From Candidatus Micrarchaeota archaeon (GTDB taxonomy: Archaea; Micrarchaeota; Micrarchaeia; Anstonellales; Bilamarchaeaceae): 45,594 bases of DNA. The notes under the pieces are model-generated. The model searched no databases. It was not told the DNA's origin and saw only the letters and a program-made list of their open reading frames with translations. The translations under genes and the position numbers were made by a program. This document shows positions 2,056 to 10,523 of the stretch, one piece after another; the stretch's first letter is position 1, and each line of letters begins with the position of its first letter. Location: positions 1-45,594 of the forward strand of contig JBDRPL010000026.1 in NCBI GenBank assembly GCA_043827025.1, given 5' to 3'.

Positions 2056-5000
2056 TTACCTGCCACTCATTGCCCCTCTTCTCTGAGTCATCTCACCCAG
2101 GTAATCGCCCAAAGATTTGCCTGCGGGAACTCCTTTGGTGTCTCCTATGCCTACCATAAACAATACTCCTACTTCAGGAGCACCTGATCTAGGGTAAAAA
2201 TCACCATATCTGGCAAATTCACGAGGGTCTCTTGAACGTACGTATGCGCCAAGATCAAATGTTGGGCCATAACTTGTTTGGTAGCGCGCATATGCTGCTG
2301 CTGCACTCTTTGAATCAGTAAGGCCTTCGCCAAGACTTCCAAGTGCTGTAGTCCCTAACAAACCAAGAGTAAACTTTCCATTCACAAGAGTAATTTCAGA
2401 ACCCGCAAACAAATAAGTTGAATCGCGTTTAGCACCTATCAAATAGGCTCTTAACCTATCAGCATATTCAACATAAGCACCTATGTTCCATTTCCAACTA
2501 GTGTCTATATGATATAACAAATAGTCCTGGTCCTTGGTAAGAGAAGAATTTTCAAAGAATCTGTATCCATTAGCTGCAGCATAAACTCGCAAATGTCCGT
2601 CAAATTCCTCCTGCAAGGCATCGATTTTAGGTGAATACCACACATTGTACAGAAGTCCCTGAAGAACTTCTTTTTGCTGAACACTCAAATCCACCTGCTC
2701 TTTGTTTAGTATCTTTGACCGAATTTCTTTTGTGAAAAGTACTTCATCAGGATCATCGATCTTTGCCAATAGTGATGCCAAAACCTCCGGAGGGACATCT
2801 TTAAACGTTCCTTTTTCAATAGCTTCACCCGTCTTAAAGTACTCTGCGCTAATTGCCCGATATCTTTGCGAATCTTCAATCACATTAGAATAAACAACTG
2901 TAGCTGCAGAAACATCAACTCCTCTCCTGCCAGTAAATGAAGGCTCTTCAGAAGCAATCATAACTGCAACGCTTATTGCAAATCGTGAAACCCAAACACT
3001 GTCTAGACCGTTAAGCCCGATCTGAATGCCATTCAAGGCAACTGGAGGAAGGCCCTGATGTGAATATGCAGGAATAGAAGAAAACAACTGCACAAAATTC
3101 CTGTCTCCGAAAGTCCAAAGATAACGCGTATTAAATCGTTGAAGATCCTGGTCCTTGAAACCCCCATCTTCTTTAGTAAGAAGATCAACTTGAATTGAAT
3201 GGTCTTTTCCAAAAGAGATTCCTAGGTAATAATTATCAAATATCTGCCTTACTCTTTCGGCATATTTTTGCTTGAAAGCATCTATGACTCTTTTTGCATT
3301 TGCAGGGTCCCTACCCACTTCGTCCTGTACCTTGTCATATTCTGTAAGGATTTGTTCAAGGCCAGTGCTTCGTGAGATATTCAATGTTCCATTTACGCTT
3401 GCCCACCTCAATAAGCCTATGAAATTCCAGAACAAATTATCGAACTTTGTTTCGGTTTCCAGGGAGTTTCTGGAAAGTGAAACTTTGCCTGCGTCCACAT
3501 CATCGAGTGTAGGGGGTTGTAGGATATCTGAATACTCTTCTTTCCATTGACCCACCAAATTTAGCAACCCCCCGACAAATGCAGCCTCCTGCTGATCATT
3601 TTGTTTCGGTGAACCGCTGGTGCCATAAATCGTTGCTGTTAGTCTTTTAAGACCGGCGATATACCTCTCCCTCTCATTTACAACTGCAATTTCCCTGAAG
3701 TTTTCAGAAGCTGATGAATATGAGAGGCCTCCTCCAAAGGAATACTTGCTTGTCTGTCTTTTTACAAACGCTCCTCCACGCCAACCAAATTTTTCGCCCT
3801 GCTCAGCAGCTTGCCTTACAACTTCATTAGTCGAAGAGATAACTGCTCCTGCTCCTGCAGTGACTTCCCACATATTATCTTTCCCTTTTACAACGCGATA
3901 GGTCCCAACTAAGTCCTGAGCAAGATACACATCTTCTTCGTCCTTAGAGGCAGGACTTTTTATCCTAAGTAATTTTCCAGGAGTTGCAAACTGGTAGGTA
4001 GCTGCACCACTGCTATCCTGCTCCATTGTTCTTCCATAAGCAGGAGTCCATTCAAGGAGTTTAGGCATTGGTTGACCTTCCTGTGTTAAAAGAGGAACTT
4101 CCTGAATGGATGCTAATCCGGAATTTAAACCCGCATCAAATGCAACTGCAAATCCACCAGTATCTGTTTCCTGGACATTTGCTGCAACCGTCACAGGACC
4201 ATTAAGCGGCTCATCTAAATCAAGAGCAGCATAATTCAACATCCTTATTGCACTATTACGCCCTTCCCTTAATCTATAGAGAGTTCCTTGTTTATCAAGA
4301 TAATAAGTTTCAAGTTGCATCCATTCATCTGTAGCTGTTTTGCCTCCGCTCGTTGTAAGGAACAATGAGGTTGGATTGTCCTTATCCCAGACCTGTCCAA
4401 CTATCCCTGCAAGATGTTTGCTTGAATCCTCATCCATCTTTTGAATCCCAAAGGCAGCGCTATCTATTCCTATAATCCTTACGCCACCGCCTTCCATTTG
4501 CTGAACATTTCCAATCGGAACCGCAAGCATCTGGCCCCCTAACAAGTATGCATTTTCACTGGATTTTTGTCCACCGAATGCCCAACCTCCAGTAGGAGTT
4601 ACACCTGCACCCAATCCACCAAAAACCGTGGTCCAATCTTCCACACCTCTTCGTGCATAGAGTCCACCTGCAGCCGAACCTCCAAGATGTTCAAAACTAT
4701 ATTCAGGTGCAAAAGGCGAGATCATAGCCTGCCTTATTTCCTTAAGCAACAATGTAGGACTAAGGCCAGATATTTGTGTACCTGGTAAATAACTAGATGG
4801 ATTCAGCATAGGTTGAGACTGCCATATAAAAGATAATAATGAAGTCCTAAACTCATCCGTAGGCCTTACTTGAAGAAAGTTAAACTGCGGCAAAGTCACA
4901 TTGCCCCCATATTGCCCAAAGGAAGTTCCAACATTGCCAATTCCAAATTGAGAACCTGAAGTCACACTTGAAAGAGACAGCGGAAATGGATTAGGAAGCA

Positions 5001-7092
5001 TTAATTGATTTCCACTCATATCCTGAGGAGTCAAAGAATAGATATATCCAACCTCTCTTTGCCTTATATCATGAGGAGGAACAGGATTGACTTGTAAATA
5101 ATCGTCAAGCAACCGATAGCGAGACATTACAGATACTGCGCTCTCCTTCAAACTAAGAAGATTATCAAAGAAAGAGCTGAGGCGCATTGCAGACTCGCGG
5201 GTGTTGACAGGTGCAGATGCATAGGCCATGCCATATTGAGAAGTTTGTGGTGACATCGAAACAACAAACACACTAATTTCTTTCAAGCCCTCGCTAAAGA
5301 CTTGTTGGTTTCCCCTGCAGACATTTGAAAGATGAGTTATTGCATTGAAATAATTTATGGCCAGCAACGAATCAATTGCAAGAAGTTGGGCAACAGTTGT
5401 TGCAACCATCGCAGACTCTCCTGAGGTTATTGAAACGACTCCATTTCTTTGGGCATTTTCAAAATAATTTATGAAAGAATATGCCACAAGCGAAGGAAGC
5501 TGAGCGGCCTGTCTTGCCAAAAGTTCTTCAGCAGTTAATGTTGGAAGCGCAGCAGCTACTTGACCTTGTTGTAGGGCAGGACCATATAAACCTACAAAAA
5601 ATTGAGCATAGTTTGCAGTCCAGGACTGTCTTGCCAAATCAAGCCTTTCAGGAATCATTGTCCGGATTAACTGTTGTTCCATTTCCGTTAAAACAAATTC
5701 AATATTACTCCCTGAAAGTTGAGATACTGAAGAAGATGCTGAAACTGAAAGCGTAGAAAATAACTTCATTGAATTTTGATCAAGAGTGAGAAGGTATCTC
5801 ATTCCCAGAGCACATAATAATGGATTTTGAAATTGAAGTGACCTCACATATTCTGCAAGAGCTTGTGCTTTTTGATCAATGTTAAGATAATCAGTTTCTA
5901 TTACTTGAAAGATTTCGTTTAGCCTGGCCAAATTAACCGCAGGTTCGCCTACCTTTGACCTCGCTTCCAACCATGCATTGAGTTGTGTTTCTTCCTGTTG
6001 CAAAGAAACATCTAAATCCTTTCTCCTTATTTCAACCAACTCATTCATTTTTGAAACGTAGGCTAATCTCTGGGCAAGATACTCAAGGCCAAGACCAGTA
6101 GGATTAAGTTCGAATACTGCAAGCTGTTCCGGCATTGTTTTTTCACGAACAAGTATAGGCAATCGCTGGATCTCCTGGACCAGTTTGGACTCGTCTTGAG
6201 ACATTGTCTCCCTTACAAGGTCCTTTTCTTTGGCCCATGTTTCGTAGACTTGTCTGATTACCTGCAAAGGGCTTTGTAGCAACCTGCCTGAAACTGCAAT
6301 CCCCATACTGCGAAGTATGCGGGTGTTTTGAGATAAAAGGAATGCATAAAATTCTTTTTTCTGGGATTCGTCAAGGCCTTTGAACAGATCATAAAGCCCT
6401 TGCGTGATTACATATGCTTCGTTTACATTAGTTGTGGGAAATATCTGGATTATTCTTTCGACAATTTTGTTAACATCCTTGGTTACAACGCTAGTATTTA
6501 TTGCATCGGCAAAATTTCCAAGAATTGTTGGGTCTGTGCCGCGTAATTCAAGTTTCAGTTTGACAGGTATACGTACGGTGACAGAATCTACAAAGGACTG
6601 ACCATATGTGGCTATCGCCTCCCTTGGTCGGGCCTTAGCCATCTCAATGGCATTCAGGAATTCTGTAAATGTGAATTTGCCTCCATCCTTCGGGATAAAT
6701 TTTTCATAAACTGGCTTGAGCTTTTCATGAGCTTCTATTTTTTCCCTGATTTTTTCAGTGAATGCTCCTGGGTCCAGATAACTGGTATCTCTAGTGTAAT
6801 TAGTAATTGCCTTTGCTTTGTGTTCAGGATTTCCTGTGGAAAAATACAGATAAATTAATCGCAGGATTTCCTGGGAAGGCGATTCAGTAAGTCCTGAAGT
6901 TGAAACCTGGGCAGATACCATGCTATAATTTAGCTCAGGACTTTTTAAAAACTTGCCCCAGGACACCGGAAGGAAAGGCAAGACTACTGTGCCGACGAGC
7001 ATTGCACCTATTTTGCCATTTGAAACTGCCCTCCTAAACCAGGATTGCTTTTCAGTGCGTCGCATGCTTGAATCTGGACGTTTCAGTTTCAT
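2056..7092 (-). CDS. Giant exported hypothetical protein (1678 aa), helical N-half and Gly/aromatic beta-strand-rich C-half
   Basis: Long ORF; basic N-terminus, hydrophobic stretch and VSA|Q cleavage-like site; alternating-hydrophobicity strands from about aa 810. Confidence 0.8.
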   Translation of the reverse strand: MKLKRPDSSMRRTEKQSWFRRAVSNGKIGAMLVGTVVLPFLPVSWGKFLKSPELNYSMVSAQVSTSGLTESPSQEILRLIYLYFSTGNPEHKAKAITNYTRDTSYLDPGAFTEKIREKIEAHEKLKPVYEKFIPKDGGKFTFTEFLNAIEMAKARPREAIATYGQSFVDSVTVRIPVKLKLELRGTDPTILGNFADAINTSVVTKDVNKIVERIIQIFPTTNVNEAYVITQGLYDLFKGLDESQKKEFYAFLLSQNTRILRSMGIAVSGRLLQSPLQVIRQVYETWAKEKDLVRETMSQDESKLVQEIQRLPILVREKTMPEQLAVFELNPTGLGLEYLAQRLAYVSKMNELVEIRRKDLDVSLQQEETQLNAWLEARSKVGEPAVNLARLNEIFQVIETDYLNIDQKAQALAEYVRSLQFQNPLLCALGMRYLLTLDQNSMKLFSTLSVSASSSVSQLSGSNIEFVLTEMEQQLIRTMIPERLDLARQSWTANYAQFFVGLYGPALQQGQVAAALPTLTAEELLARQAAQLPSLVAYSFINYFENAQRNGVVSITSGESAMVATTVAQLLAIDSLLAINYFNAITHLSNVCRGNQQVFSEGLKEISVFVVSMSPQTSQYGMAYASAPVNTRESAMRLSSFFDNLLSLKESAVSVMSRYRLLDDYLQVNPVPPHDIRQREVGYIYSLTPQDMSGNQLMLPNPFPLSLSSVTSGSQFGIGNVGTSFGQYGGNVTLPQFNFLQVRPTDEFRTSLLSFIWQSQPMLNPSSYLPGTQISGLSPTLLLKEIRQAMISPFAPEYSFEHLGGSAAGGLYARRGVEDWTTVFGGLGAGVTPTGGWAFGGQKSSENAYLLGGQMLAVPIGNVQQMEGGGVRIIGIDSAAFGIQKMDEDSSKHLAGIVGQVWDKDNPTSLFLTTSGGKTATDEWMQLETYYLDKQGTLYRLREGRNSAIRMLNYAALDLDEPLNGPVTVAANVQETDTGGFAVAFDAGLNSGLASIQEVPLLTQEGQPMPKLLEWTPAYGRTMEQDSSGAATYQFATPGKLLRIKSPASKDEEDVYLAQDLVGTYRVVKGKDNMWEVTAGAGAVISSTNEVVRQAAEQGEKFGWRGGAFVKRQTSKYSFGGGLSYSSASENFREIAVVNERERYIAGLKRLTATIYGTSGSPKQNDQQEAAFVGGLLNLVGQWKEEYSDILQPPTLDDVDAGKVSLSRNSLETETKFDNLFWNFIGLLRWASVNGTLNISRSTGLEQILTEYDKVQDEVGRDPANAKRVIDAFKQKYAERVRQIFDNYYLGISFGKDHSIQVDLLTKEDGGFKDQDLQRFNTRYLWTFGDRNFVQLFSSIPAYSHQGLPPVALNGIQIGLNGLDSVWVSRFAISVAVMIASEEPSFTGRRGVDVSAATVVYSNVIEDSQRYRAISAEYFKTGEAIEKGTFKDVPPEVLASLLAKIDDPDEVLFTKEIRSKILNKEQVDLSVQQKEVLQGLLYNVWYSPKIDALQEEFDGHLRVYAAANGYRFFENSSLTKDQDYLLYHIDTSWKWNIGAYVEYADRLRAYLIGAKRDSTYLFAGSEITLVNGKFTLGLLGTTALGSLGEGLTDSKSAAAAYARYQTSYGPTFDLGAYVRSRDPREFARYGDFYPRSGAPEVGVLFMVGIGDTKGVPAGKSLGDYLGEMTQRRGAMSGR

Positions 7093-7219
7093 AGTTTAAC
7101 CTAGATAACCTAATTATGACTCGTGGTGGTATTTTTTCTTAGGATGTAATGTTATAAAAAGAATAAAAACCTATGTCCCACCCAACAGTGCGGGATATAA
7201 ATAAACAAAGTTCATTTTA

Positions 7220-7279
7220 GGTCCCATTCAGCAGAATGGGAAGGCAAGCGAACGAGGTTCGCTTTATATCTCATGGACC
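7220..7279. other. Intergenic two-hairpin element
   Basis: cccattc-agca-gaatggg (7223-7240) and aagcgaac-gag-gttcgctt (7246-7264). Confidence 0.45.
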
Positions 7280-7284
7280 AAAAA

Positions 7285-8289
7285 TTATTTACATCTCCCG
7301 AGGTCACAGACCTTGCCGTCAGGGCATAGGGTGACAACCTTCACTACCTTATTGGTGCTTGTGCAATAATATTCGGTCAACACCCGGGTATTAAGGCATT
7401 TGTCTGCAAATGAAAGTATTCCTTTGGTCACAAAACCTTTCCGGTAGAAATCCTTTCCTGAGTCAGAGTCATAGCATTCGAAATCGCTTGAATCGATTAT
7501 TGTTTCGTTCGTCTCTACAGGCTCAAGCATGCATTTTCCCTCATAACAGAAATACTTGTCCTCGCATTTTACCGAGGAAAACTGCTGCATGCTCTCATTG
7601 CTGCAGGAATATTCCCTTACTATTTGAGTATCAATGCACACGTCCTCATACTCCTTGGTATCATAGCCATCATTAACACTAACAGTGCCCCTGACAAACT
7701 CATTGTTTCCATCTGAATCGCTGCACTGGTAATTCAACTTAACACATGAACTGTTTATGCATCCCAAATCGCATGCGATTATTTCTGACACCAATTCATC
7801 ACCCCTGCAAGAATATTCCCTCACAGTGAATCGGTCTGAACAGGCATCCTTGTATATCTTATTCCTAAAGGTGACTGTACCTGCCTTGAATTCATTATCC
7901 GCAGAGTCAGAATCATAGCAAGGACTTTCCTTGCATAAGTTAGTCATGCAATAGGTGCCTGCCTTGCATTCGGACTTCTCAACAGTTACTTCATTGTCCA
8001 GGCAATAATACCTAACAAGCTGGCCATCCTCGCACCTGTTATCATACCTTTCTTCTCCAACACTGACGCCATAAGGCGATTCGTCGCACACCTCGATTTT
8101 TATAGGAGGAGGCTCAATACTCTCATTCTTTACCGGAGGAACCACAGTCTCGTTCTTGGTTATATTTTCCACAGGTAGATTCACAGGGGGCGTAACAGTC
8201 TGATTGTCTACACCTGTCTTCTGCCCCTGGTCCAGGTCAATGCATCCAAACAATCCGAATACCAGCAATAAAACGATTAATTTTTTCAT
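7285..8289 (-). CDS. Cys-rich repeat lipoprotein (four C-x-DSD...G-x-V...D-x-C...EY-x-C repeats)
   Basis: Lipobox LFGC; Pro/Asn-rich linker; start moved to ATG 8289 because the upstream GTG is part of an AGGTG RBS. Confidence 0.8.
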   Translation of the reverse strand: MKKLIVLLLVFGLFGCIDLDQGQKTGVDNQTVTPPVNLPVENITKNETVVPPVKNESIEPPPIKIEVCDESPYGVSVGEERYDNRCEDGQLVRYYCLDNEVTVEKSECKAGTYCMTNLCKESPCYDSDSADNEFKAGTVTFRNKIYKDACSDRFTVREYSCRGDELVSEIIACDLGCINSSCVKLNYQCSDSDGNNEFVRGTVSVNDGYDTKEYEDVCIDTQIVREYSCSNESMQQFSSVKCEDKYFCYEGKCMLEPVETNETIIDSSDFECYDSDSGKDFYRKGFVTKGILSFADKCLNTRVLTEYYCTSTNKVVKVVTLCPDGKVCDLGRCK

Positions 8290-8428
8290 TTGAGACACCT
8301 ATTTTTATATTCATGATTCAAATCAACCATTACCTGCATAATGATTGTCTTTAGTACTGTTTATAAAAACTTTCGGTCAAAAAAAGAATCTACGCACTGT
8401 GATTACTTGTCACTGTGCAGATTAGAAT

Positions 8429-8463
8429 GCCACGATCGTGCGAACAAGTTCGCATCTCGCAGC
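8429..8463 (+). repeat. Acceptor-stem-like hairpin upstream of tRNA-Phe
   Basis: GCCACGA-TCG-TGCGAAC-AA-GTTCGCA-TC-TCGCAGC versus tRNA acceptor GCCGCGA/TCGCGGC. Confidence 0.55.
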
Positions 8464-8474
8464 TTTCTTCGAAA

Positions 8475-8643
8475 GCCGCGATAGCTCAGCTGGGAGAGCA
8501 CACCTGAATTTCTTTGGTATTTTTTCATTCAAAGGAATTCTGTGAAGCTGAAGTCTCTCAATTGAAAAATCCGAACCTGATTTGGATCGCCAATTTAGGA
8601 ATTTGAAACGGTGGGGTCGCTAGTTCAAACCTGGCTCGCGGCA
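8475..8643 (+). tRNA. tRNA-Phe(GAA) with two introns (30/31: 8505-8546; 37/38: 8554-8607)
   Basis: Acceptor GCCGCGA/TCGCGGC+A, D-arm GCTC/GAGC, anticodon stem CACCG/CGGTG restored after removing both introns, T-arm GCTAG-TTCAAAC-CTGGC; intron 1 has a clean BHB helix CACA/TGTG; no encoded CCA. Confidence 0.92.
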
Positions 8644-8692
8644 ATTTTTCTTTTTTTAATAAGATTAGCGACAGCTATGTGAATTCAATCAA

Positions 8693-8802
8693 TGTGACCG
8701 AAGGGACCCCACAGCAAGCTGATAGGGTATGCCCCATTCGATCACAGCTTTGATGAACTGGATTTCGCTGCAAGCAGCGGGGTATGGACCCAGTTCATCA
8801 AA
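8693..8802. ncRNA. Orphan double-hairpin element between the convergent tRNAs
   Basis: Hairpin 8693-8746 and hairpin 8749-8802 (perfect 13-bp base stem); both capped by C-AA-G (CUUG on the minus strand) and both carry GGGTATG on the 3' arm. Confidence 0.45.
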
Positions 8803-8846
8803 TCAAGACTGAAAAGCGAAAACATGAAAAGATGATAAGGTAATAT

Positions 8847-9017
8847 TGCCGAGGGTGGAACTCGAATCCACGACCTCTCAATTTCTCAGTTAAAAATGCA
8901 ATTTAAGGTCATCGCCCTGCAATGCAGGGCTCAACACTCATAATTTGTTTTTTCTTCTTTGCAGAAAGAAAAGTGACCATATGAGTCGAGCACTCTAACC
9001 AGCTGAGCTACCCCGGC
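8847..9017 (-). tRNA. Elongator tRNA-Met(CAT) with a 97-nt intron at 37/38 (8883-8979)
   Basis: GCCGGGG/CCTCGGC+A acceptor, anticodon stem CTCGA/TTGAG, loop CT-CAT-A|A, BHB helix CTCA/TGAG, T-arm GTGGA-TTCGAGT-TCCAC. Confidence 0.92.
8883..8979 (-). ncRNA. Putative intron-encoded box C/D guide RNA targeting C34 of tRNA-Met
   Basis: Guide AATTATGAGT (8945-8936), D'-like TTGA (8934-8931), C'-like GCGATGA (8915-8909), D box CTGA (8889-8886), degenerate C box ATGGTCA at the 5' junction. Confidence 0.65.
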
Positions 9018-9023
9018 TTAGTT

Positions 9024-9059
9024 GCTGGGGTTCGTGAACTTGTTCACGGCTACCCCGGC
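9024..9059 (-). repeat. Acceptor-stem-like hairpin upstream of tRNA-Met
   Basis: GCCGGGG-TAGC-CGTGAAC-AA-GTTCACG-AA-CCCCAGC; first 11 nt identical to the tRNA 5' end. Confidence 0.65.
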
Positions 9060-9125
9060 ATATATACTGGATTCCTATAAAATGAGGACAAAATATTATA
9101 AATCAATCCTTTCCTGCCTGGCAAA

Positions 9126-10523
9126 TCACTTCATAAACAGATTCGGCAGCAGATTCAGCAAAAACGCAAGAAGTGTCAAAACCATCAAACCAAAAACAAT
9201 TCTTTTGTTCTTTATATTTATGCTCAACAATCTGTACCCATCAAAGAATGGAAGAGGAAGCATATTCATTGTGCCAATGGCGAAATTCAATACGAATATC
9301 AGGCCGAGTGTCACATAGATGAACTGAAGGGCGACATTCGAATAAGCAACAAGAAAGAAAGAATTGTTAAGCGGAATGAACATTATTCCCAGTTTTCCAT
9401 TTGCATCCGTCTGCACATCCATCTCTCCCTTATTGGTGATAAAATGCACTGTTGAATTTTTTGGAAGCTCCATTCCATTTTTAGAGTATTTGGAAAGATC
9501 GCCTGTGAAGTCCATGCCATTAACACTCTTCAATATGAATGACTCGTTCATACCTGCAACCACGAGAAGCCCTGATTCCTTGAAAGGCTGGGTGAAATAG
9601 ATAAAGCCAATCAACAAAATGAATGCTAAAATACATGTGAAGAAATTAGCAGTTGAACCTGCCACTATGACGCGAGACTGGCGAACCCTGTCCAGATGCT
9701 TGAGCCCTTTTTCATCAGGCTCCACAAATGCCCCCACAGGAATTATACCAAAAAGCACCAGGCCAGTTGAAAGAACGCGTATCTTTCCTATTCTTGCAAG
9801 TATTGCATGAGCACCTTCATGTACCATTAATATGACCACAAGAGCTACGATTCCCTCGAAAAAAGGAAGATTGATTCCTGGGATAATGAATGTGGCACCT
9901 GCATTAGGCTGGACCGCAGATATACCTGAAACATAATCAACTGTCTGCTGAGAAATTATTAATGCTTGGAGAATGAGCCCAAAAAACAGCAATAGGAACG
10001 CCCCGCCCACGATAAGGGATATCAGAAAAAACATCGGAATGAGGTTAGCGATTGAAAAGGGTGGCTCTGCAGATGTTGATTCTGCTTGTGCAGTAGTTCC
10101 GCTGTCAGACACTGCACCTATAGGAAACCCTATTATATATGCAAGAAATGGAAGTATGAATGGGGCAACCAGAAACATCATCACGAACAAAAGAAAAAAA
10201 CCTGCGACTGCGGCTTTCAGTGATTTTTTCTTCATAAGGAAAAATGTAAGGAGCCCATATGACATGAAACTTCCAATATCAGCAAACATATTCCATAATT
10301 TTTCCATACCTGAAAGGCGCTCAATCAATAGAAGGCCTTTCTTGCTTTTAAGAAGCACACAACCCATCTCGGAATGAAAACCATACTTCCTTACAAGTAT
10401 ATTTGTCAATATGATCATTTCGACGAAGACAAGCACAAATTTCAAGAGGCCTGGGGCATCCGCCGAGAGTATTGCATAAAAGATTATAAAGGCTAAAAGA
10501 ACTAAAACCGGCAGAAATACCAT
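9126..10523 (-). CDS. Site-2 protease family (M50) intramembrane metalloprotease
   Basis: HEGAH, GAFVEPD, AGSTAN and NMLPLPFFDG motifs; many TM segments. Confidence 0.92.
   Translation of the reverse strand: MVFLPVLVLLAFIIFYAILSADAPGLLKFVLVFVEMIILTNILVRKYGFHSEMGCVLLKSKKGLLLIERLSGMEKLWNMFADIGSFMSYGLLTFFLMKKKSLKAAVAGFFLLFVMMFLVAPFILPFLAYIIGFPIGAVSDSGTTAQAESTSAEPPFSIANLIPMFFLISLIVGGAFLLLFFGLILQALIISQQTVDYVSGISAVQPNAGATFIIPGINLPFFEGIVALVVILMVHEGAHAILARIGKIRVLSTGLVLFGIIPVGAFVEPDEKGLKHLDRVRQSRVIVAGSTANFFTCILAFILLIGFIYFTQPFKESGLLVVAGMNESFILKSVNGMDFTGDLSKYSKNGMELPKNSTVHFITNKGEMDVQTDANGKLGIMFIPLNNSFFLVAYSNVALQFIYVTLGLIFVLNFAIGTMNMLPLPFFDGYRLLSINIKNKRIVFGLMVLTLLAFLLNLLPNLFMK

What the first reader, a model, noticed from the sequence alone, without database searches (positions are those of the whole stretch)
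8429..9059. Both tRNA genes are preceded by a mini-helix copying their own acceptor stem around a shared GAAC-AA-GTTC hairpin
Seen: 11 nt before tRNA-Phe lies GCCACGA-TCG-TGCGAAC-AA-GTTCGCA-TC-TCGCAGC (8429-8463; tRNA acceptor GCCGCGA/TCGCGGC). 6 nt before tRNA-Met lies GCCGGGG-TAGC-CGTGAAC-AA-GTTCACG-AA-CCCCAGC (9059-9024; acceptor GCCGGGG/CCTCGGC). Flanks match the cognate tRNA, the core hairpin is shared, and both end CAGC. Inference: either a small element that inserts at tRNA 5' ends with duplication, or a leader that acts as a tRNA-mimic decoy or processing aid. I do not recognise this arrangement from described tRNA leaders.
Basis: partly seen in the sequence, partly recalled or inferred. 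Interest (0 to 1): 0.7.

Follow-up and report, generated by a model that had tools for sequence, protein, structure and literature searches.

The report
Hairpin cassettes duplicating tRNA gene ends
The short hairpins in front of these two archaeal tRNA genes are two members of a family of 40-60-base inserts, each carrying a direct and an inverted copy of the gene end beside it, found at both ends of many tRNA genes and at some protein-gene starts; they likely act as folded single-stranded DNA recombination sites rather than as RNA processing aids, and the enzyme that would move them is unidentified.

Summary
At least 10 of 40 tRNA genes in this genome have such a 5' module (non-cognate control 17 of 1236) and 8 of 39 a mirror-image 3' module. 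The layout is: gene end, spacer, inverted copy, hairpin core, direct copy. The inverted arm complements the adjacent end; it is not a copy of the tRNA's other acceptor strand. Modules occur in about 47 of 99 genomes of the family and at a few protein-gene starts. They have empty orthologous sites, appear as identical copies before different tRNAs, and keep structure, not sequence. Purine-rich loops and G-T wobbles lie on the antisense strand for 5' modules (34 vs 3) and mostly on the sense strand for 3' modules, the signature reported for integron attC sites. This points to folded single-stranded DNA, not a tRNA-mimic leader. They fail attC membership, and none of seven enzyme families tested tracks them. 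An RNA role is not excluded. This scan found the same family before on other archaeal DNA; ten literature searches found no description.

The parts
8429..8438 (+). Direct copy of tRNA-Phe nt 1-10 (8 of 10 identical)
8439..8454 (.). Core hairpin of the Phe module, 7-bp stem, 2-nt loop
8457..8463 (+). Inverted arm; can pair with the direct copy or with the real tRNA 5' strand; two mismatches are C-A on the sense strand and G-T on the antisense strand
8464..8474 (.). Spacer, itself a 4-bp stem with a 3-nt loop (GAA on the antisense strand) that caps the arm/tRNA-end hairpin
8475..8643 (+). tRNA-Phe(GAA) with two introns, inferred at 8505-8546 and 8554-8607; the sister species lacks the first, which fixes that junction
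9049..9059 (-). Exact direct copy of tRNA-Met nt 1-11
9033..9048 (.). Core hairpin of the Met module, 7-bp stem, 2-nt loop
9024..9032 (-). Inverted arm of the Met module, one C-A (antisense G-T) mismatch at pair 3
9018..9023 (-). 6-nt spacer of the Met module
8847..9017 (-). tRNA with CAT anticodon (read as elongator Met; inference) and a ~97-nt intron after the anticodon
8360..8369 (+). TATA-like box upstream of the Phe module (inferred promoter)
   Evidence: by eye
9076..9082 (-). TATA-like box about 20 nt upstream of the Met direct copy (inferred promoter; the module would be co-transcribed)
   Evidence: by eye

Best explanation
The two leaders are copies of a small, gene-less DNA cassette (spacer, inverted arm, hairpin core) lying between two direct copies of a gene end, and it is likely moved and maintained by recombination acting on one folded single DNA strand, much as integron attC sites are. 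Shown: the layout is the same when read outward from either tRNA end; the same kind of cassette sits at some protein-gene starts; orthologous sites can be empty; identical cassettes precede different tRNAs that share their first bases; tandem arrays exist; the outward strand carries the purine loops and G-T pairs. Inferred: because the two acceptor strands are an inverted repeat, a DNA-level process aimed at the acceptor-end sequence reaches both ends on opposite strands; the arm and the direct copy pair to rebuild a duplex target on the folded strand; exchange between that site and a matching gene end inserts or copies the cassette and leaves the direct repeat; the arm is then re-matched to its new neighbour by template switching or conversion. 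Side effect (predicted): in the precursor RNA the arm binds the spare copy, which would limit its interference with the acceptor stem. The acting enzyme is not identified.
For: Cognate specificity. Mirror 3' modules: 8 of 39 versus 33 of 1210 non-cognate and 8 of 390 shuffled; most follow a T-run. Strand polarity, 5' modules: loops purine-rich on the antisense strand in 34, pyrimidine-rich in 3, one tie, of 38; G-T 19 versus A-C 6. 3' modules: 10 purine-rich, 4 pyrimidine-rich, 2 ties of 16; mismatches G-T 7, G-A 11, G-G 4, A-C 1 on the sense strand. Outward strand folds better as DNA in 29 of 38 and 13 of 16. attC sites show G-T pairs, purine skew and GAA loops on the recombined strand (PMC5027507, passages). 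Empty sites: 19 of 21 tRNA-Phe genes; Val-CAC in G001; two protein-gene sites filled in G000 and empty in G001. Gene-to-gene copies: identical cassettes before two tRNAs in G103, near-identical in G007 and G100; tandem arrays in G029 and G085. A shared 13-nt spacer abuts nt 1 of Leu, Ser, Ala and Val genes in three genera and a variant of it occurs at a protein-gene start. All 6 core pairs show two-sided changes in 19 hand-picked Ser/Leu modules.
Against: No enzyme tracks the modules: IS200 TnpA in 11 of 47 module-bearing versus 14 of 52 other genomes; tyrosine recombinases 29 of 47 versus 31 of 52; Cas1 0 of 5, reverse transcriptase 1 of 5, serine recombinase 0 of 5, IS110 1 of 5 module-rich genomes; no GIY-YIG match in G000 or G001. 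The two focal modules are among the loop exceptions (TT on the outward strand). 7 of 38 and 3 of 16 modules fold better as DNA on the other strand, and with RNA energies 14 of 38 5' modules favour the sense strand. Mismatch base and position are confounded, and kin are not independent, so the p-values overstate. Long persistence at fixed loci fits a host function as well as re-invasion: the Cys copy (13 nt) and arm plus spacer (16 nt) are identical in G000 and G001, whose four-fold sites are 39% identical, and one regulator-gene module is kept in two genera. No excised circle or precise-excision joint was observed.
Confidence: 0.5

Rival explanations
1. Enzyme-free origin: stalled replication at folded tRNA genes switches template to another module through the shared first 8-11 bases and back, copying the cassette; quasi-palindrome correction then matches the arm to the new site.
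For: No dedicated enzyme found. Spread is richest among Ser and Leu genes that share their first bases. Repeat length varies from about 7 to 35 nt. Template switching at quasi-palindromes is recalled knowledge.
Against: It does not by itself predict the same outward-strand polarity at both ends, a conserved spacer, or persistence of a hairpin between direct repeats, which should be deletion-prone (recalled).
Confidence: 0.2
2. RNA-level role: the transcribed leader is an acceptor-stem mimic or conformational switch that tunes RNase P processing, or translation at protein genes.
For: TATA-like boxes lie upstream of the direct copy. The sense strand does fold (-10.6 and -16.5 kcal/mol). The predicted fold of both unspliced precursors is a swapped state in which the leader copy pairs with the tRNA 3' strand (minimum-energy structures at ensemble frequency under 0.5%). 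Modules are conserved at Cys, Ser, Phe and an HTH regulator gene.
Against: 5' modules favour the non-transcribed strand; most 3' modules lie beyond a T-run; 19 of 21 tRNA-Phe genes lack a leader; an RNase P RNA-like gene is present (E 6e-16, below the family cut-off); no bulge-helix-bulge can be drawn on the two focal modules (by inspection).
Confidence: 0.2
3. Scars or decoy landing sites of tRNA-targeting viruses and integrative elements: the direct copy is an att remnant, kept as a spare target.
For: Partial tRNA duplication by integrating elements is known (PMC9897764, passages; PMC3293823). G000 has tyrosine recombinase genes beside tRNA ends.
Against: No cargo or integrase lies between the repeats; att scars carry no inverted arm. 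At G000 C19 a copy of the real tRNA-Val 3' end lies beside an integrase gene with the module's own copy intact beyond it. 0 of 224 direct-repeat matches in viral contigs were tRNA-linked (the first scan covered 25 of 64 parts). Recombinase presence does not track modules.
Confidence: 0.1

Closest known systems
Integron attC sites and empty gene cassettes (PMC5027507, passages; archaeal integrons and CALINs, bioRxiv 10.1101/2022.02.06.479319, passages)
   Same: Layout core repeat / inverse core / unpaired spacer / hairpin / core repeat; G-T pairs, purine skew and GAA loops on one strand; structure kept while sequence varies.
   Different: The repeated core is the host gene end, different at each site, with no AAC triplet at the crossover box; no conserved extrahelical bases seen; no cargo gene; no integron integrase above cut-off in G000.
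tRNA fragments left by integrative elements (attL/attR; PMC9897764 passages; Caldiarchaeum tRNA-Thr 5' fragment, PMC3293823 part 1 of 5)
   Same: A direct repeat of a tRNA end next to the intact gene.
   Different: Insert is 30-60 nt, not kilobases; no recombinase inside; carries an inverted copy; occurs at both ends and at protein genes.
Bacterial non-autonomous palindromic repeats acted on as single strands: NTS with Ssn nuclease (PMC11893778, abstract start and two passages); REP/RAYT (recalled)
   Same: Short gene-less hairpins in many copies; the 13-nt spacer also caps hairpins in phage contigs.
   Different: Those repeats have a fixed sequence and a linked enzyme; here the stem is rebuilt from each host site, the target is duplicated, and no GIY-YIG or tracking TnpA was found.
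Intron families shared among archaeal tRNA genes (Thermoproteales intron transposition, as reviewed in PMC4090602, passages)
   Same: The same hairpin words occur inside tRNA introns of these genomes; the review supposes a DNA-level mechanism, still unknown.
   Different: These modules lie outside the mature tRNA, have no bulge-helix-bulge, and come with a target duplication.
Mitochondrial hairpin elements near tRNA genes (yeast GC clusters PMC4478555, sponge RHE PMC2800124: search listing only; Neurospora PstI palindromes: recalled)
   Same: Enzyme-less mobile hairpins near tRNA genes.
   Different: Organellar; a cognate direct-plus-inverted copy of the tRNA end was not checked in those papers.

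Membership tests
Integron attC site | Imperfect hairpin folded preferentially on one strand (G-T and purine skew) | tested here: met
   against PMC5027507
Integron attC site | Conserved AAC/GTT triplet in the outer (R) box | tested here: not met
   Outer stems are tRNA-end sequence; AAC/GTT, when present, is at the tip of the inner stem
Integron attC site | Conserved extrahelical bases 6 bp apart near the L box | tested here: not met
   Focal cores are perfect 7-bp stems; no gap column in the aligned cores; the detectors selected perfect stems
Integron attC site | Integron integrase as the acting enzyme | tested here: inconclusive
   Catalytic-domain pieces of the three G000 tyrosine recombinases score far below the IntI cut-off; attC clusters without integrase exist; activity untested
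att scar of an integrative element | Direct repeat of a tRNA end | tested here: met
att scar of an integrative element | Recombinase and cargo between the repeats | tested here: not met
   Inserts of 31 and 36 nt
Casposon / Cas1-type target duplication | Cas1 homologue, terminal inverted repeats, fixed-length duplication | tested here: not met
   Cas1 0 of 5; repeat length variable
IS200/IS605 non-autonomous element or REP | Linked Y1 transposase and no target duplication (recalled) | tested here: not met
   Duplication present; TnpA does not track modules
Ssn-associated repeat (NTS type) | Small GIY-YIG nuclease in the genome | tested here: not met
   No PF01541 match in G000 or G001; the five matches in relatives lie in 527-566 aa frames
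Archaeal BHB tRNA intron or split-tRNA leader | Bulge-helix-bulge at the junctions | tested here: not met
   By inspection and predicted folds
Processing leader or tRNA-mimic RNA | Transcribed and cleaved or bound as RNA | not testable with these tools
   No RNA run holding the stretch was listed

The most novel reading that the evidence does not exclude
A host-wide, integrase-less recombination system in small archaea uses the tRNA acceptor end itself as the crossover core: each cassette carries its own inverted copy of the target, folds as single-stranded DNA into an attC-like site, hops between tRNA and gene ends, and is the same machinery that drops related hairpin modules inside tRNA genes, where they become introns. 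It would be the missing DNA-level mechanism of archaeal tRNA intron gain.
Probability: 0.2. Interest if true: 0.85.

Novelty: new variant of a known kind. Interest (0 to 1): 0.55.

Why it matters
How archaeal tRNA introns spread is described as unknown but probably DNA-level (PMC4090602). These modules share hairpin words with those introns, leave a readable footprint (direct plus inverted copy, empty and filled orthologues) and show a strand signature that predicts the substrate. That makes the question testable with oligonucleotides and by phylogenetic profiling. If an enzyme is found, it would recombine a site whose stem is copied from its target.

Tried and rejected
Exact core GAAC-AA-GTTC as the family tag: 9 sites, 7 unrelated; cores vary. 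Enzyme candidates: IS200 TnpA, tyrosine recombinase, Cas1, reverse transcriptase, serine recombinase, IS110, GIY-YIG; none tracks the modules (draft genomes, so not found is not absent). No small ORF flanked by hairpin clusters was seen in G000 or G001. Rfam: nothing but tRNA above noise at 8300-9150. Viral contigs: 0 of 224 matches tRNA-linked. Genome-wide detector: its 11 hits inside coding regions are near the shuffled background of 5 and were not counted as modules. The Thr-TGT 5' hit and the Phe 3' hit are probably chance. Hits in families f13 (7 of 72) and f14 (11 of 57) look like coding-sequence chance matches. 5S rRNA and the RNase P RNA-like gene show no end copy by eye. Sigma-70 and terminator scan is not suited to archaea. 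No RNA holder listed. A look for excision joints in the best-holding run could not be obtained, so precise excision is untested. Exact protein look-up gave no names, so no taxonomy.

Full report
Setting. The window is contig C26 of a 1.33-Mb, 91.6% complete genome. Archaeal flap endonuclease is above cut-off and the best match of a neighbouring gene is aMBF1; an RNase P RNA-like gene is present below the family cut-off. The label Micrarchaeota comes from earlier notes on this genome and was not tested by me. tRNA genes are intron-rich; I curated 40 by hand, and the set may be incomplete.

Observation. Both stretches are as described and exceed chance. The downstream arm is an inverted copy of the adjacent end, not of the opposite acceptor strand: it complements nt 8-13 in Cys and Val and, at 3' modules, the T-run after the gene.

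The family in this genome. By eye 13 of 40 genes have an upstream copy of their own first 7-15 bases (Phe, Met, Cys, two Val, two Ser, three Leu, two Ala, Arg-CCT). The detectors found 11 and 10 of 40. Mirror-image modules follow 8 of 39 3' ends (one probably chance). Read outward from the gene, both kinds give end, spacer, inverted arm, short internal loop, hairpin core, direct copy. A strict genome-wide detector gave 25 hits (7 at tRNAs, 7 intergenic or at gene ends, 11 in coding regions) against 5 in a shuffle. Convincing non-tRNA cases are C5:16739, C32:70165 and C18:14120, all at protein-gene starts, and a longer insert at C10:24190-24380. In Ala-TGC, Ala-GGC and Arg-CCT the core is a longer hairpin that also opens many tRNA introns, so leaders and introns share parts.

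Relatives. I fetched 1.01 Mb of about 1.1 Mb of G001, same genus; median protein identity is 64% over 476 pairs and four-fold sites are 39% identical. Of 25 G001 tRNA genes inspected, Phe, Cys, Ser-GGA and Ser-TGA have orthologous leaders with changed cores, Met and Val-TAC have a different intron-type module in antisense orientation, and Val-CAC is empty. The G000 inserts at C5 and C10 are absent in G001, while the C18 module at an HTH regulator gene is present in G000, G001 and G036 with different cores. Of 30 loci fetched with the Phe 5' motif, 21 were tRNA-Phe; only G000 and G001 had a leader and G024 had a 3' module (by eye). One low-depth contig from run X5 carries a variant Phe leader in which 8441 and 8452 change together and keep their pair; another spans the Met leader with no listed change in it (depth near 3, may be error). 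A Ser/Leu direct-repeat pattern that does not ask for a hairpin matched 43 of 99 family genomes, the reversed control 15; I judged 36 genuine by eye. Adding searches gives 47 of 99 (list), a lower bound. Outside the family, genuine-looking cases occur in four more families of the order and one outside it (311 genomes, by eye). Identical or near-identical cassettes precede different tRNAs in G103, G007 and G100, and tandem arrays occur in G029 and G085. In 19 hand-picked modules all six core pairs show two-sided changes. A scan of 185,579 species for the Met/Phe-type 11-nt repeat gave 24 hits, none labelled archaeal; most are tRNA 5' duplications, and one Peregrinibacteria case has an inverted arm with the same C-A mismatch.

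Which strand folds. For 38 distinct 5' cores the loop is purine-rich on the antisense strand in 34 and pyrimidine-rich in 3; arm mismatches read G-T 19 times and A-C 6 times on that strand. For 16 3' modules the sense strand has 10 purine-rich and 4 pyrimidine-rich loops and 22 G-containing mismatches against one A-C. With DNA energies the outward strand is better in 29 of 38 and 13 of 16; with RNA energies in 23 of 38 and 12 of 16. One false 3' hit (L119) was dropped before the count. Both focal modules fold better on the antisense strand but have TT loops there, so they are exceptions to the loop rule. Kinship inflates these tests. The same three features mark the recombined strand of attC sites (PMC5027507). 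That GNA loops and tandem G-A pairs are especially stable in DNA is recalled.

Mechanism. A transcript cannot fold the antisense strand, and most 3' modules lie past a T-run, so one polarity at both ends is most simply a DNA-level process aimed at the acceptor-end sequence, which occurs on both strands. I infer a cassette whose folded strand rebuilds the target duplex and recombines with a matching gene end. Against this, no enzyme was found among seven families, no excision product was seen, and persistence at Cys, Ser, Leu and a regulator gene could reflect a host function. Both unspliced precursors are predicted to fold with the spare copy pairing to the tRNA 3' strand, so the module can matter at the RNA level; whether as cost or function is open.

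Known and new. It works like an empty integron cassette but fails the AAC and extrahelical-base tests; it is not an att scar, casposon, IS200 derivative, Ssn repeat or BHB intron (membership table). Ten searches of the held library returned no description; subscription journals are largely missing. Papers seen: PMC3293823 part 1 of 5; passages of PMC5027507, PMC11893778, PMC4090602, PMC9897764 and bioRxiv 2022.02.06.479319; others as listings only. Earlier notes of this scan describe the same family in other archaea; my first reading was recorded before seeing them, the phrase 'direct and inverted copy' follows theirs, and they are not independent support.

Verdict. Real, apparently undescribed in print, a new variant of gene-less hairpin elements; mechanism about 50% likely as stated; interest 0.55.

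Noticed in passing
window 8687-8806: A ~120-bp gene-less element between the two tRNAs whose palindrome matches an end of an IS200-type element on C6; four more full copies at 98-99% identity and several half copies in the genome; also in runs X2 and X3. Looks like an active non-autonomous IS200/IS605 derivative.
   Followed up: partly
window 8387-8423: A further imperfect hairpin between the TATA-like box and the Phe module; not seen in G001.
   Followed up: no
window 7214-7275: A GAAC/GTTC hairpin with imperfect outer arms just past the end of the 337-aa ORF.
   Followed up: partly
window 2056-7092 (-) and 7285-8298 (-): A 1678-aa ORF and a cysteine-rich 337-aa ORF with no Pfam or NCBIfam match.
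   Followed up: partly
G001 L097, L105, L075, L132, L150 and G000 C25:36720-36757: An intron-type hairpin module in antisense orientation abuts tRNA 5' ends, with a variable loop of 19 nt in the seven cases counted by eye and a TATA-like arm; it may carry a portable promoter.
   Followed up: partly
G001 tRNA introns, e.g. L091 and L075: The intron-opening hairpin has a loop that can pair with bases after an A-rich linker, a possible H-type pseudoknot (by eye).
   Followed up: no
G000 C18:20205 (-); G001 L067: A tRNA that reads as Ile with anticodon TAT, unusual for archaea (recalled), with several introns.
   Followed up: no
G000 C19:1700-1830: A copy of the tRNA-Val(CAC) 3' end beside a tyrosine recombinase gene, followed by a 3' module: a probable integrated element boundary.
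   Followed up: partly
L166-L189: About 20 bacterial genomes (CPR, Omnitrophota, Planctomycetes, Bacteroidota, Gammaproteobacteria) have a tRNA 5'-end duplication 29-49 nt upstream, often with a small palindrome where the D-loop would be.
   Followed up: partly
G000 C24:43142-43175: Two GAAC/GTTC hairpins inserted within a coding frame.
   Followed up: no
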